Origin: Octopus vulgaris
Lineage: Eukaryota
Assembly (NCBI GenBank): GCA_951406725.2
Contig: OX597821.1
Location: forward strand, 10,230,001 to 10,294,000
Reading direction: 5' to 3'
DNA length: 64,000 bases
A model generated the notes under the pieces. That model saw only the letters and a program-made list of their open reading frames with translations, made no database searches and had not been told where the DNA came from. Both the position numbers and the translations under genes were made by a program. Positions 1 to 24,719 of this stretch are shown here, one piece after another. Positions within the stretch are counted from its first letter, which is position 1; every line of letters begins with the position of its first letter.

Positions 1-735
1 GCAATATTCCACATGATTTATAAACGGTGATTAAATACTGGGTGGAAAAACTGTGTTGGGCAGTTGCAACAGCAGCAGCAAAAACGGCAGCTCCAACACC
101 AGCAGCAAAAACGGCAGCTCCAACAGCAACTACAACAATAACTGCACTAACAGCTACTGCAATTAATGTTGAAGAAGTCTGAAAATAATTCAAGTTATTC
201 CTCTATAGCAGAATTCATTTATAACCCAGAAGATACTACTGTTTCTGCACATTTTGGAAGATACGAAGAAACCTTCGAAAAGGATGTAAAAATTGGACTG
301 ACAAGAAAAAAGTGCGACTACATTTAAGAAAGTTATCCCCTGCCGAATATGAAAAAATACTTCAATCACATTTTGCTGAAAGAACCTGGTGAGATTCGTT
401 TCGATGAAACTATTAATGCTTTATCGAAAATTTTCAGTTAAAGAAGTTCCCTATTCAATACTCGCTGGCAGTGCTTGAATTTAGAAAAGAAAAGAGCATG
501 AAAATTTCGACATCTATGCTGGGGTTGTTAAAATAATGTCTGAAAGATTCAAATTAAATCAACTCTTGACTTGTGAAATGTTTAATTTTTGTCCTAGAGC
601 AAACACTGAAATTAAAAATGCAGATATGCGTTCCAGGATATTAAGAAAATTAGAATAGGACCAAAATTTAAGAGATGGGGAATTATGTACATTATTTACA
701 ATTGACGGATATTTGTTTTCATCTTCCTTGTTGTT

Positions 736-781
736 AACGCAACGTTTCGGCTGATATATCCTCCAGATTTCATCAGGTGTC
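736..781 (-). ncRNA. Minimal type I hammerhead ribozyme relic
   Basis: Minus strand reads GACAC-CUGAUGA-AAUCUG GAGGAUAUAU CAGCC-GAAA-CGUU-GCGUU. Core intact, stems I and II partly mismatched, palindromic AACGUU stem III. Confidence 0.6.
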
Positions 782-819
782 TTGGGGAAATTTTGAACCT
801 GGGTTCGAAATTTCCCCAA

Positions 820-865
820 GACGCCTGATAAAGACTGGAGAATATATGAGCCGAAACGTTGCGTT
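820..865 (+). ncRNA. Minimal type I hammerhead ribozyme relic (core mutated)
   Basis: GACGC-CUGAUAA-AGACUG GAGAAUAUAU GAGCC-GAAA-CGUU-GCGUU. Stem I pairs; the core has G>A (CUGAUAA). Confidence 0.5.
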
Positions 866-2595
866 AACAACAAACAAGATGGAGACAAATATCTATCAAT
901 TTTAAATAATGTACATAATTCTTCATCTCTTAAATATAGAACTGAAAAAAAAAAAAAAATTATTACGCAAAATGGGCGTCTCCAGCAGTTTATGTCAATA
1001 AAAAATAATAACATCCAACAGTTTTAATCGGATGTTTCATGCCATATAATTACCTGTTACCAAGTGCGGAAGAAATTTTTGCGAAGTTGAATGAGGAATT
1101 TTTCTTTCAAGTTTAGAGCTATCTGAGGCATACATGCAGTTAGAAGTTGCTGAGAAATGTTCAAAAGTGTTGACGATAAATACCCATAAGGCATTGCATA
1201 AATTTTATCCACTTCATTTTGGTATAAAGTAGCACCAAACATTTTCCAACAAGTTATGGGCATACTACTCTCAGGTTCGAATTTCGCTATAGTTTACCTT
1301 TAAGAGAGACGTATATAAAAGTGAATCTCGTGACCAGCAAGCTGAGCATGTTTCAAAGCTCTTCGAAAAAATTAATGATCATGGTATAAGCTCAGTGATA
1401 AATTGTGTGAACTTTTTATGAGAAGAATAAAATACCAGGGCAGACTATCGGTGAAAATGGACGCAGACCAGACCCGTCAAGAAAAAATATGACACTCCCG
1501 AAAAACATTACAAGCATTTCGGGGCCCCGCAAAATATGAGCACCGTTGTATAACAATCGAATATTAAAAGAATACCATACTGGATATCCAGTAATTTCTA
1601 GGATGAAGTGTCTTATGAGGAGTTATGTTTACTGGCTGAAAATGGATCTAGATATTGAGACGTTGATAGACTGCTGCTGCGGTTGTGCTTTTGTAGCGAA
1701 TGCAACAGCTTTGAAATTTTAACCTTGGTCGAAAGCCAATATTCCATAGATCAGGTTACACATAGACTTCGGAAGACCATTAAGTGGATCATATTATCTA
1801 ATAATGGTAGATAGCTTACAGAATGACCAGAAATGTGTAAATGTAAAAAGTTTACCTCTACTATAACTGGATTTTCTTTTTTGCACGGTATGGGCATACC
1901 GCGCACTATAGTCTCCAAGAACGGCACACAATTTACAGCGAATGAATTCAAGAATTTTTGCAAGTGGTACTCATTTGAACATATCACTACTCCTCCGTAT
2001 CACACATGATCAAACGGATAATCTGAACGCTGTGTGGAGTTGTTCAGAATGGTACTGCCTAAATCCAGAAATGAATTAGTGGATGATGTAACCTTGACAC
2101 AATTCCTGAGAGTTAACCGTATAAAGCCAAACCCAAATACTCTTTCAGACGAATCACTCGCTGAACTGATGTTCGCAAGAAAAATTAAGTTAATTTTTGA
2201 CAATTATAACAGAAAAAGAAAAACTAGGGAAAACACTAAAAAGTACCACAGAGTATTTAAAAACTGGTGATAATGTGTTTTCAGAGTGAATAGAAATGGA
2301 AAAGAAGTTGAGAAGACGGTAAATAAAACGGATCGATAAAATGACGTATATATATTCTGAAAGGGTCATAAAAGATACATAAATGAGATGAAAAGAATAT
2401 TGCTGCCGAAAAGTTTACAATGTAAAAAGTAACCATGGACGTTTTCTGCGATATTTTTGATCTCCAGATTTCATAAGAAGTCGGTGAACCAAATTGTACT
2501 TATACTAAAATAAGAGAACATAGAGTATATTTGGAGTGAGTTCCAAAAAAAGAAACTTATTCATTTCCAACGAAAGTCAATCTCACAAGGTGAGA

Positions 2596-8572: not shown

Positions 8573-9349
8573 CAGCAGTTTTATTTTTATAACGTGCTTT
8601 CACTTCACTATCGAGCGCAGCTCTGTGTGCCTTGGGTACGTGCTGCGGTTTGTTGTGATGCTCATATGGTTACTGTATTGAAAGTGTTTTGCGTAGGATG
8701 TGTGCAGTGCCTAGTAGTGCAATTTTCTGTATGTTATATGTGTTTGTAAGTCCTGGTGTTTTTGTTATGTATTTGTATGAATATTTTTTATCATACCTAA
8801 TGCGCCTACTATGATAGGAATTATTTCTGTTTTTAGATTCCACATTCTGGTTACCTCTATTCCCAGGTCTTTGTATTTTGATAGTTTCTCCATTTCTTTT
8901 AGAGACACGTTGTCATCTGCCGGTATTGATATATCAATTAGAAAGCATGTTCTTTCTTCTTGATCTCTGACAACTATATCTGGCCTAGTGGCCTCAATTT
9001 CTCTATCTGTGTGTATTGGCATATATCAGAGTATGGTTGCTTTCTCGTTTTCTGTGACCTTTTCTGGTGTGTGCCAATACCATCTTTTTTCTGTTGTTAT
9101 TCCATAATGTTGGCATAGCGTCCAGTGTATGTAGGTCCAAACTCTATCGTGTCTCTGTATATGTTCCTTCTTAGCCGGAATTGGGCAGCCAGATATAATA
9201 TGATTTATTTTTCTTGTCTATATCCACATATTCTGCAGTTACTTGTTATGTGTCTTTTCATTATATGTTTTTGGTAACCTCTGGTGAGGAGGCTTTGGTC
9301 TTGTGCTGCAATTAAAGATCCCTCTGTCTCTGATTTGAGTCCTGAGCTT
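8573..9349 (-). mobile_element. R4/Dong-like non-LTR retrotransposon 3' fragment (CCHC plus restriction-like endonuclease)
   Basis: ORF 8765-9022 'RPDIVVRDQEERTCFLIDISIPADDNVSLKEMEKLSKYKDL..IIPIIVGALG'; upstream 'CRICG..INHIISGCP..RHD'; 3' end runs into (TAA)n; homologous to 23046-24005. Confidence 0.9.
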
Positions 9350-9934
9350 CAATCAGAAAAGTTCGGGGACCATCAAACTCCTTCTCTAATTAACTTAGAA
9401 AAACAACAAAAGTTACTTTTCTTTAGAATTATAAGATAATACTTTTTTTTCATTTACAAAAGCGTTATGGTATGTTCGAGGAAGGTTTGGCTACTGTTCT
9501 CTCTTTAACATATACCACTATTACATAAGGAATAGTAACGTAACACTCTTGATTCAGAGGGTTAAGAAGAATAAAATATGTTCCATATTATCAACGTCGG
9601 TCCTCATATTTCTGCTTTATCCTCTCTTCTTTCATAAAGATTAAAATAAATATTAGTAAAGATATTAAAATAGCGCCAACATTCGACCTTATTCAGGTTT
9701 ATTAAAACCAGAAATAAATAGAGCGACATGAATACCTGGATAAACTACTTTAAAAAGGAGCTAACAATGTTCGGTTAATCCTTGACTGTTTGTTCAGACT
9801 TGTTGCATCCAAACTATCCAGAAGAGGGTTCAAACTGAGCTTCCGGAAGATGTGAGAATAATAAACGTTTATAATGGTTGGGGCACTCCGTCTGTTGAGA
9901 CGCCGACTATTCTGTACTGTGTTGTCATAGTCGT

Positions 9935-11535: not shown

Positions 11536-12073
11536 GAGTGAGAGAGCAGCGCATGTCATCAAAGTGACATTGGGGTAAAATATACGAAGCTCAAAATACC
11601 CATCACGACTAACCGTCTGATAAGGGCACTCCAGACACATGCATCGCAATCGTATGTGCATTACATGGTGATCTTATATCAAGGTAACCAGCGCATGGCC
11701 TTGCAGGCGGGACCCAATTAGAATTGCCTTCAGATTGAGTAACCTGGCCCGATCAAAATGTTCCTGAATAAGATTTGTTTAAGAATGATGAATGAAACAC
11801 CCATGTTTTCAGAGGTCAATTATAAAAACCCTAAAGAAATCGACTGGCTAAGTCACTCATCACCTACTTCAGCTCGTGATCAGAGATGAGCATATCGTCA
11901 GCTACTGATGGATATGCTCAACGGGTTATTATCAAGCAACTGACATGCAAATCTGTGGTATGGGCAGAATGTATGCTGCTGTCCATCTTCGAAAACATTG
12001 TATATGATAACACTTCCAATCAGTTACTATCAAAATCCATTAGAGCCACTGTCTCGTCCTGTATCAAGACATT
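11536..12073 (-). mobile_element. ~550-bp non-coding (TAA)n-associated retroposon, diverged copy
   Basis: Reverse complement aligns end to end with 24166-24719; (TAA)n on both sides. Confidence 0.85.
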
Positions 12074-12251: not shown

Positions 12252-12449
12252 GACGGATATTTGTCCTCATCTTGTTTGTTGTTAACACAACACTAATTTA
12301 GCATTATTTTATAAAAGTATAACTTTTACTTGATATTAAGATGGCAGATTAGTGTGAAGGATTTAAGATACTTTTAACTACAAACAAGGTGTGTTAACAA
12401 CAAACAAAATGAGGACAAATATCTGTGGAATTTAAATAATGTAAATAAT
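12252..12449. repeat. Inverted repeat homologous to the outer arms of the 666-935 foldback, with unrelated centre
   Basis: GACGGATATTTGTCCTCATCTTGTTTGTTGTTAACACAAC (12252-12291) versus TGTGTTAACAACAAACAAAATGAGGACAAATATCTGT (from 12390). Confidence 0.8.
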
Positions 12450-12459
12450 ATAAATAATG

Positions 12460-14330
12460 TACACTTACAGCAGTTTTGGTTTTTAATTGCCACGTACTAA
12501 ATATCTCAGTCTCAAGGTCCTAATATTTCAACTTTGTTCGGACCACTTTGCTGAAATAGCACTGTCATATCATTCACCATACATTTTCATGTCCTTAGTC
12601 TTTAATAACCATGTCTGGTCTGTTAGCTTTTCTTTGCCTATCTGTTTGTATCAGATAATCCCATAGAATGGTAACATTCTCTCCCTCAGTGACTGAATCT
12701 GGATGGTGCGAATACTAGGTCTTTGGGTGTGGAATAACATAGTGACGGCAAGTATTGGCCAAACTCTACCATACCTGGTTTTATATTCTATAAGGGCTTG
12801 GACTGAGCAACCGTGTGGTCAATACTCTCCAGTTTATCATTGTGTTTTCCGCATTGTCTGCAACATTTGCTCAGTAGTTACCAGAGAAGTGGCTCTGATA
12901 TTCATTCGCAAGGTAAAACTTTCTGTTGCAGCTTTCCAACCAGTATTCTGTAACCGTTAATGACTTCTCATATCTACATCAGTTCCCATAGCTCGTTTGG
13001 TGAATTGAACATGCACTGGTTTTTCTTGCCACAGTCTCGATATGGCTTTTGGTTTACACATTTTGCTGCCTTAGAGCGTGGTGTGTCCACCTTGTCATCA
13101 TCATCAAGGACGCTAAGCACTCGTTTGTATTTATCTGATGTCTCCTTTGAGACTAAGTGTATTCACTCTCTCTATTCGTGTTGCCTTACCATCAATATCA
13201 TCCAGTTTCTATTATTTTGGATGTATAATTGGAGTCATAAGTGGTACGTTTTATAGGACGTTTCAAGTCGGCTTAAGACACTGCTGCCTTCCTTTCGTAG
13301 GTAATAGAGTCTGTGGACCACTGATTTTTGGTGGTGCATCATATCTAGTGTCAGCAGTTTCCTGGTCTTTATGTCCATACGCTAGAATTCACTCAGATTC
13401 CAACGGATGACATTCATACTATACTGGACCAATAGTACATCCAGGGTTTTTATAGCTGCAATGCTGCTCAGTTTTCAGGATAATTCCGACAAGTCTATAA
13501 TACTATTTCCTGATCATTGCTTTCATTGATCTGTGTCTAGGCTAAATTCCATATTTTATGACATCATTTAATATTATCACAATTACTAGTAGTCCTTGCA
13601 GCTCCCTGTCATATTTTCCATTTAATTTCAGGTCATTCATTCAGAGTAAATGTGAGATTATATTTTCAGACATTATGTGGTGTGATTTGTTCTATTCAGT
13701 TTAAAAGACAAGGAAATGAGGGAATCAGAAGTGGAGAGGAGTAATTGATTCGCCTTGAAATATTTCTCGGCTTATTTCGTTATGTGAATTAGCAATTTTC
13801 GAGTAGCATCCGGTTTATTAATAACTTGTCTTTGCAACCGTGTATGATTCTTTTGCACCATCATTGTTCACAGAGAAGGATGTTGTTTTCATCGAAAAAG
13901 TGGTACATTCTTTCGATGAGGATAGATGTAAATATTTTGTACATGGTAGACAAACAAGCGATCCGCCTGTAGCTTTTTTGGGGTTTCATGTGTCGCTTGT
14001 TTTAGTGAGTAGCTAAGATATCGCTAATGTTACCAACCATGGATTGTCTTCAGAGTTTCTGATGATATTAGAGAAATATTGCATTGACAGAGGGTTTGGT
14101 AATGAGAGACTAATAATCCAGAAGTTTGGGATTTTATCATGCCCAGGAGATTTCCACTTACGATTTTTAGATAGAGCTTGAGTCAGTTCATGCATCGTAG
14201 CAACGTTCCATCATTGATCTTCAATATCGGCGTTTCTTTCTTCTCTTCCTACCCATTCGGTTCCCTTGTTGAATTCCATTATATTGCTCCACATGCTTTT
14301 CTAAAATGTCACTACTTATTTTATATCAGG
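12460..14330 (-). mobile_element. Older, degraded R4/Dong-like LINE RT fragments
   Basis: 'KWKSPGHDKIPNFWI' (ORF 14013-14195), 'YRRIACLSTMYKIFTSIL..FDENNIL..EQ' at ~13870-13970, and a post-RT 'HQKSVVHRLYYLRKEG' motif at ~13290-13335. Confidence 0.7.
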
Positions 14331-24165: not shown

Positions 24166-24719
24166 AAATGCTCTGATGCAGTACCAGGCAGTGGCACTCA
24201 TGGCTTCTGATCTTAACTGATTGGAAGTGTTATCATGTACATTGTTTTGTCTTGGTATAAAAGATGGGCTACAGCAAATATTCTGCTCAATACCACAGAT
24301 TTACTTGTCAGTTGTTTGACCTTAACCAGTTGAGCATGTCCCTTAGTGGCTGACGATATGTGCACCTCTGATCACGAGCAGAAGTTGTGGGGGAGCACCA
24401 TAGCCGTGTGTTGAAAGGAATTCTTGGAGGTTTGGATAATTCACATTTGGAAACATGGGTGGTTCATTCAACCTCCTTAAACACTCCTTATTCAGGGACC
24501 TTTTGAATGGGATGGGCTACTCGACAAGAAGAAAATTCTGACTGGGCCCCACCTGCAAGGTCATACGCTGTTTATCTTGATATGAGATCACCATGTCGCG
24601 CTCATATGGTTGTGATGCATGTGTCTGGTGTACCCTTATCAGATGGGTAGTCATGATGGGTATACTGGGCTATATTTTACCCCAGTGTCACTTTGATGGC
24701 ATGCACTGCTCTCTCACTC
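24166..24719 (+). mobile_element. ~554-bp non-coding (TAA)n-associated retroposon, full-length copy
   Basis: Starts AAATGCTCTGATGCAGTACCAGG, ends GCTCTCTCACTC(AAT)n. Two further copies at 11536 and 38911. Confidence 0.88.

What the first reader, a model, noticed from the sequence alone, without database searches (positions are those of the whole stretch)
12252..12449. Second foldback copy whose two arms both begin at the predicted ribozyme cleavage site
Seen: the arms match the outer parts of 666-935, but on both arms homology stops 1-3 nt upstream of the predicted cut GUU/GUGUUAAC (left arm edge 12291, right arm edge 12390). About 98 bp of unrelated sequence lies between them. Inference: the integrated copies came from RNA whose 5' end was made by HHR self-cleavage, which would be a genomic fossil of ribozyme activity. 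Loss of the centre of an unstable palindrome is the alternative explanation.
Basis: partly seen in the sequence, partly recalled or inferred. Interest (0 to 1): 0.7.

Follow-up and report, generated by a model that had tools for sequence, protein, structure and literature searches.

The report
Penelope stubs enclosing mitochondrial DNA scrap
Two short, back-to-back ends of a very common Penelope-type jumping gene enclose an 83-base piece of mitochondrial DNA that was likely captured when a DNA break was repaired, and because most copies run straight through the predicted ribozyme cut site, this locus is probably not a fossil of ribozyme cutting.

Summary
The two arms are real: 12252-12291 (antisense) and 12390-12463. 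They start at -3 and at -1 (or -3) relative to the predicted hammerhead cut. The spacer is not unrelated: 12294-12376 is 79/83 identical to the mitochondrial contig across the trnL1/trnL2 junction (a NUMT), followed by an extra 15-nt copy of the arm. The arms are 5'-truncated ends of an abundant Penelope-like element (at least 7,452 exact tail hits; RT and GIY-YIG-like ORF upstream). Of 97 unselected arms, 92 run through the cut, 5 end at -1..+4, and 25 end at the tRNA-like head start. Junctions exactly at +1 are about 1% of arms. The left arm keeps the GTT triplet, which a cleaved RNA would lack. A weaker signal remains: a 2-3-fold bump of junctions at +2..+9, five other loci with both arms ending at -3..+1, and a 3-nt deletion across the cut in about 10% of arms (absent in a second hammerhead family). 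Best reading: an ordinary inverted Penelope insertion sealed by end joining with mitochondrial filler. This scan noted the family before on other DNA, but not the NUMT filler.

The parts
12252..12291 (-). Left arm: 5'-truncated end of a Penelope-like element, family positions -3 to +37 relative to the predicted hammerhead cut. It may extend to 12250, and 12292 may be a CpG-decayed -4. Short 3' end.
   Evidence: 40/40 identical to the family consensus. Contigs join left flank and arm in runs X2, X4, X5 and X6.
12292..12293 (.). Two unassigned junction bases
   Evidence: They differ from the mitochondrial bases before 9347 and only partly fit the arm.
12294..12376 (+). NUMT: mitochondrial 9347-9429, the last 42 nt of tRNA-Leu(UAG) plus the first 43 nt of tRNA-Leu(UAA), in tRNA sense
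   Evidence: 79/83 identity to contig C227, E 3e-34, with ARAGORN mitochondrial tRNA calls. A 75-nt contig with the window's own letters lies at nuclear depth (42 versus 37 for the flank) in run X1, which may be the assembly's source.
12374..12388 (+). Extra templated copy of arm positions +4..+18; its first three bases are shared with the NUMT end (3-nt microhomology)
   Evidence: 14/15 match to both arms; junction read.
12390..12463 (+). Right arm: 5'-truncated Penelope-like end from -1 (or -3 at 12388) to about +68. It lacks the long 3' tail.
   Evidence: Alignment to consensus; tail class short. Contigs join arm and right flank in X2 and X5.
666..944 (.). Reference copy: two head-to-head arms of the same family, each truncated about 60 nt upstream of the cut and each with a whole minimal hammerhead

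Best explanation
Two 5'-truncated ends of a Penelope-like retrotransposon sit head to head around an 83-bp mitochondrial tRNA-Leu fragment and a 15-nt extra copy of the arm, which were likely captured as filler when the two cDNA ends were joined by end-joining repair during insertion. Shown here: the arms, the mitochondrial identity of the spacer, the family's coding parent, and the family's usual two-arm, one-long-tail, target-duplication geometry. Inferred: the enzyme cut both DNA strands and copied two RNAs; both copies stopped early, as such copies do all along the element; free mitochondrial DNA and a templated arm piece sealed the gap. The ends fall near the hammerhead cut mostly by chance, helped by the short palindromes AACGTT and GTTAAC that flank it.
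For: Mitochondrial match and tRNA calls. A 3-nt microhomology and a templated arm piece at the junction. RT motifs (Pfam RVT_1, E 1.5e-7) and a GIY-YIG-like C-terminus upstream of the same terminal repeat; 18 homologues at 55-69% identity, 13 of them with RVT_1. 140 of 162 head-to-head pairs have one long and one short tail, and 95 of 162 show a target duplication of 7 nt or more versus 6 in the control, as described for PLEs (PMC8557442 passages; PMC11167929). Truncation points are spread along the element and 92 of 97 arms pass the cut. Foreign sequence between arms is common: 31 of 162 pairs have 30 nt or more unexplained, some of it microsatellite or later insertion. NUMTs enter breaks by end joining with microhomology or added bases (PMC2567098 abstract).
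Against: Both arms ending within -3..+1 is rare under independence: about 0.6 such loci expected versus 5 others seen, rough Poisson p 4e-4. Five of 22 body truncations lie at -1..+4 (p 0.008). This copy is atypical (short/short tails, no target duplication), so it may have been damaged or remodelled after insertion. It is the only one of 162 pairs with a mitochondrial filler, and none of 9 other nuclear copies of this mitochondrial stretch is flanked by family arms, so no pattern supports the timing of capture.
Confidence: 0.55

Rival explanations
1. The copy first inserted as a perfect palindrome folded back at AAC|GTT (both arms starting at -3). Later the hairpin tip broke and was repaired with mitochondrial DNA.
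For: The left arm ends at -3, and the right arm also fits -3 with one T-to-G change at -2, a variant seen in other copies. Two intact AAC|GTT-centred palindromes and one near-perfect one exist elsewhere (L382, L384, L383). The lost tail and missing target duplication suggest later damage.
Against: Only 2-3 such palindromes were found genome-wide with the one pattern tried. The break would have had to lose no arm bases. Arm and NUMT divergences (0/40, about 7/74, 3-4/83) do not separate the ages.
Confidence: 0.25
2. Both cDNAs were made on hammerhead-cleaved RNA and stopped at its 5' end; the reverse transcriptase jumped onto an unprocessed mitochondrial tRNA-Leu precursor.
For: The right arm fits +1 with a single chance base. 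The mitochondrial piece is in RNA sense relative to the right arm. Junction hazard is about 2-3 times higher at +2..+9 than at -16..-5. L385 has both arms at +1/-1 with a short filler. A 3-nt deletion across the cut occurs in about 10% of arms versus about 3% for the deletion in a perfect tandem nearby, on three tail haplotypes, and is shared by partner arms in only 7 of 20 pairs versus 63-76% for inherited variants.
Against: The left arm holds GTT (-3..-1), which is absent from a cleaved 3' fragment (chance about 2%). There is no peak at +1. Much of the +2..+9 bump is fold-back at GTTAAC or microhomology joins. A second hammerhead family shows no clear deletion across its cut in 100 listed copies. 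In the anole PLE, uncleaved RNA was the dominant template and no RNA-seq reads began at the cut (PMC11167929). Minimal PLE hammerheads cleave poorly as monomers (PMC4209133).
Confidence: 0.17
3. Assembly chimera that joins mitochondrial reads into a hairpin.
For: No listed contig bridges either arm-NUMT junction.
Against: The piece differs from this genome's mitochondrion at 4 sites, one of them shared with older NUMTs. A contig with exactly these letters lies at single-copy depth in X1. Flank-arm contigs occur in organisms A, B and C.
Confidence: 0.03

Closest known systems
Endonuclease-positive Penelope-like elements with an inverted 5'-truncated copy and a one-sided 30-40 bp tail (PMC8557442, passages and Fig. 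2 legend; PMC11167929, main text)
   Same: RT followed by a C-terminal GIY-YIG-like domain with CxC, minimal hammerhead in the terminal repeat, head-to-head truncated copies, and a tail on one side in 140 of 162 pairs.
   Different: This copy has two short tails, no target duplication, and a mitochondrial filler at the inversion point. The family has a tRNA-like segment between the ORF and the hammerhead.
Minimal type I hammerheads of metazoan PLEs (PMC4209133, results and discussion)
   Same: CUGAUGA core, an extra base before stem II, short stem I, and a loop-less palindromic helix III (AACGUU).
   Different: In this copy the ribozyme itself is absent. Activity is untested for the family.
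NUMTs inserted at double-strand breaks by end joining (PMC2567098 abstract; PMC3467031 passages)
   Same: Short mitochondrial piece, with microhomology at one junction and added bases at the other.
   Different: It lies exactly between two inverted retrotransposon ends. My searches listed no paper describing this for PLEs.
Non-LTR retrozymes (bioRxiv 10.64898/2026.07.22.740005, abstract, introduction and part of methods)
   Same: Type I hammerhead and PLE affinity.
   Different: Retrozymes are head-to-tail tandem, non-coding units bounded by cleavage. Here copies are inverted, mostly span the cut, and have a coding parent.

Membership tests
Penelope-like element (EN+) | RT domain in the parent element | tested here: met
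   RVT_1, E 1.5e-7, in L194. The RT motifs lie in one reading direction with the C-terminal domain and the terminal repeat in L123.
Penelope-like element (EN+) | C-terminal GIY-YIG endonuclease with CCHH motif | tested here: inconclusive
   Motifs are visible by eye in L084 and P0001 (motif names recalled), but there was no Pfam or PDB hit.
Penelope-like element (EN+) | Inverted 5'-truncated copy with a tail at one end | tested here: met
   140 of 162 pairs are long/short. This copy is one of 19 short/short pairs.
Penelope-like element (EN+) | Hammerhead motif in the terminal repeat | tested here: met
   Core and stems pair in the consensus. Rfam gave no hammerhead hit in the window.
Penelope-like element (EN+) | Clade assignment by RT phylogeny | not tested
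   No tree was built.
Minimal type I hammerhead | Self-cleavage at the GUU triplet | not testable with these tools
   Needs a cleavage assay. No raw RNA reads were offered.
NUMT | High identity to the host mitochondrial genome, in nuclear context | tested here: met
   79/83 to C227; lies on chromosome-scale contig C8; nuclear-depth contig in X1.
Non-LTR retrozyme | Tandem head-to-tail hammerhead units, copies bounded by the cut | tested here: not met
   Copies are inverted pairs or single arms, and 92 of 97 span the cut.
MITE / foldback DNA transposon | Fixed symmetrical termini and constant length | tested here: not met
   The ends are asymmetric and the centres vary from 0 to more than 900 nt.

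The most novel reading that the evidence does not exclude
A few percent of this Penelope family's insertions were copied from self-cleaved RNA. That left a bump of junctions just 3' of the cut, several loci with both arms ending at it, and a recurrent 3-nt jump across it; at this locus the enzyme jumped from the cut end onto a mitochondrial tRNA precursor. This would be genomic evidence that PLE hammerheads cut in vivo and that PLE reverse transcriptase can make NUMTs from RNA.
Probability: 0.17. Interest if true: 0.65.

Novelty: new member of a known kind. Interest (0 to 1): 0.3.

Why it matters
Whether PLE hammerheads cleave in vivo is open (PMC8557442, PMC11167929). This family of roughly 25,000 arms (inferred from 7,452 exact hits) allows a genomic test. 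The sampled answer is that uncleaved RNA was the main template, with at most a few percent of copies from cleaved RNA. The locus also shows that the inversion junction of PLE insertions can hold captured mitochondrial DNA, a possible route for NUMT formation, but it is one case in 162 pairs.

Tried and rejected
Rfam scan of the window: no hammerhead family, only microsatellite-driven miRNA hits. ARAGORN with the bacterial setting and Rfam missed the mitochondrial tRNAs; the mitochondrial setting found them. ARAGORN did not call the tRNA-like head as a tRNA. Pfam and PDB searches with the endonuclease-like segment found nothing useful, and the protein atlas did not hold it. Sequencing-run search: no RNA holder was listed, so RNA ends could not be examined; only contigs could be laid, none bridged the NUMT junctions, and no empty site was seen. 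MITE and retrozyme readings were rejected (membership table). The idea that the 3-nt deletion is a general scar of ribozyme cleavage was not borne out in a second family (counted by eye from the listing). A 15/15 match of window 12282-12296 to mitochondrial 13987-14001 (E 0.01) was treated as chance. Rows left out: 20 of the 100 listed hits were not fetched and were judged small deletions by eye from the listing; 5 of 58 automatic junction calls in that set were re-classed by hand as indels; only 30 of 165 and 30 of 418 hits were classified. No supplementary files were read; those of the PLE papers may hold octopus consensus sequences that bear on naming the family.

Full report
Observation. 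The window lies on contig C8 of a 2.8-Gb genome. The two arms match the outer parts of 666-935. Against a family consensus built from 97 copies, the left arm (12252-12291, minus strand) is 40/40 identical from -3 to +37, counting +1 as the first base after the predicted cut. The right arm runs from -1 (12390; -3 at 12388 with one change) to about +68 (12463). The predicted cut after GUU is supported by pairing of stems I and II in the consensus.

The spacer. A search of the genome with 12285-12395 gave 11 matches, the best other one on contig C227. C227 is 15,651 nt and carries 23 mitochondrial tRNA calls. Window 12294-12376 equals its 9347-9429 at 79 of 83 bases and spans the end of tRNA-Leu(tag) and the start of tRNA-Leu(taa). 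It crosses the gene junction and has no CCA, so the source was mitochondrial DNA or an unprocessed precursor, not a mature tRNA. After it comes a 15-nt extra copy of arm +4..+18 (12374-12388) that shares three bases with the mitochondrial end. None of the 9 other nuclear copies of this stretch has family arms next to it. The gene order and earlier scan notes suggest an octopus; that label is inference.

The family. An exact 30-nt tail motif occurs 7,452 times, control 0. Upstream of the hammerhead lie an (AAT)n tract, a tRNA-like head and, in longer copies, an ORF end with RT motifs and a GIY-YIG-like domain. Pfam confirms RT, and 13 of 18 homologues carry RVT_1; the endonuclease is recognised by eye only. 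Of 162 head-to-head pairs, 140 have one long and one short 3' end, 19 are short/short and 3 long/long; 95 have a target duplication versus 6 in a shuffled control. This is the insertion geometry described for Penelope-like elements (PMC8557442, passages), explained by two RT start sites and cutting of both strands (PMC11167929, parts 1-2 of 4). The 'foldback' is therefore two cDNAs joined head to head. This copy is short/short with no duplication.

(a) Unselected sample: 97 arms anchored on +4..+33 in the first 34 Mb of C1. 22 end in the body between -78 and +4 (five at -1..+4), 28 in or near the microsatellite, 39 in the head (25 in its first 12 nt) and 8 reach the ORF. The method does detect a peak, at the head start. 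Five of 22 in 5 of 84 positions is a mild excess (p 0.008). (b) Enrichment patterns for junctions at -16..-4, -4..+9 and +9..+21 gave 165, 473 and 418 hits. Classifying 30, 80 (plus 20 by eye) and 30 of them left 23, 53 and 11 true junctions (with hand corrections). In the central set the apparent ends were spread over +2..+9. Thirteen were at +2, mostly fold-backs at GTTAAC, and only one true junction was at +1. After a rough correction for filter pass rates, the hazard at +2..+9 is 2-3 times that at -16..-5 and about 1.5 times that at +10..+21; the filters are sequence-biased, so these ratios are approximate. (c) Direct test at +1: 698 arms have a non-consensus base at -1 versus 5,356 consensus. 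Of 40 examined, 4 are true junctions, which scales to about 1% of arms. There is no sharp peak. For this copy, the left arm keeps GTT at -3..-1, which a cleaved 3' fragment does not contain.

Results that favour a minor role for cleavage. A pattern for two arms both ending near the cut found 22 loci (control 8). Five are family pairs with both ends at -3..+1, two of them perfect AAC|GTT palindromes; about 0.6 were expected under independence (rough estimate). About three quarters of the 698 arms above carry a 3-nt deletion spanning the cut, so roughly 10% of arms; the deletion in a perfect AAC-AAC tandem 6 nt away has 172 hits, about 3%. The deletion occurs on three tail haplotypes and is shared by the partner arm in 7 of 20 pairs versus 63-76% for inherited variants, so it is partly inherited and partly recurrent. 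A jump across a nicked RNA using a 2-nt microhomology would give exactly this product, but so would slippage at a structured site. A second hammerhead family (669 hits) showed no clear deletion across its cut in 100 listed copies, about 40 of which have a non-cleavable triplet (by eye). In the anole element, ribozyme mutants inserted normally and no reads began at the cut; minimal hammerheads were inactive as monomers (PMC4209133, parts 1-2 of 4).

Other individuals and species. Contigs joining the left flank and arm occur in runs of organisms A, B and C, and contigs joining the right arm and flank in A and B. A contig with the NUMT's own letters lies at nuclear depth in X1, which may be the assembly's source. 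No contig bridges the NUMT junctions and no empty site was seen.

Mechanism. Most likely (0.55), two cDNAs stopped early and were joined by end-joining repair that captured mitochondrial DNA and a templated arm piece. Foreign sequence between arms is not rare (31 of 162 pairs, some of it later insertion), and NUMTs are known to seal breaks with microhomology or added bases (PMC2567098, abstract; PMC3467031, passages). Next (0.25) is a later break at the tip of an AAC|GTT palindrome. Cleaved-RNA templates with a jump onto mitochondrial RNA get 0.17.

Novelty. Every component is a known kind. Paper searches listed no report of a NUMT between PLE arms or of a genome-wide test of PLE ends against the hammerhead cut; the library is incomplete. 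I also saw passages of PMC13282606, which did not describe this family, and part 1 of 5 of the retrozyme preprint. Earlier scan notes describe this family on other DNA; look-ups for the NUMT filler, the cut-site deletion and this sequence found nothing.

Noticed in passing
genome-wide, e.g. L259-L287: A 3-nt deletion spanning the predicted hammerhead cut occurs in about 10% of family arms and is the commonest deletion in the element; it is partly inherited and partly recurrent.
   Followed up: partly
L032-L121: 25 of 97 arms begin within 12 nt of the start of the tRNA-like head that lies between the ORF and the hammerhead, suggesting a Pol III-type start or a strong RT stop.
   Followed up: partly
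L338-L367 and listing: A second hammerhead family (669 hits) in which about 40 of 100 copies have G at the cleavage position, predicted not to cleave.
   Followed up: partly
L255:429-598; L237:19-76: Two other NUMTs in fetched loci (170 and 58 nt); the first lies about 150 nt outside a family palindrome, not between its arms.
   Followed up: no
L286:1530-1613: An arm ending exactly at +1, followed by about 80 nt of filler that resembles sequence also seen in L094 (another repeat), then the opposite arm.
   Followed up: no
window 41557 (+) and 21247 on the reverse-complement count: Two related hammerhead-like motifs of a different family with CUGAAGA cores.
   Followed up: no
window 11588-11841 and 24418-24671: An inverted pair of a 254-nt dispersed repeat, 78% complementary.
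   Followed up: no
window about 150-1600: The reference copy 666-944 appears to interrupt a decayed retrotransposon pol-like sequence (impression by eye, recalled motifs, untested).
   Followed up: no
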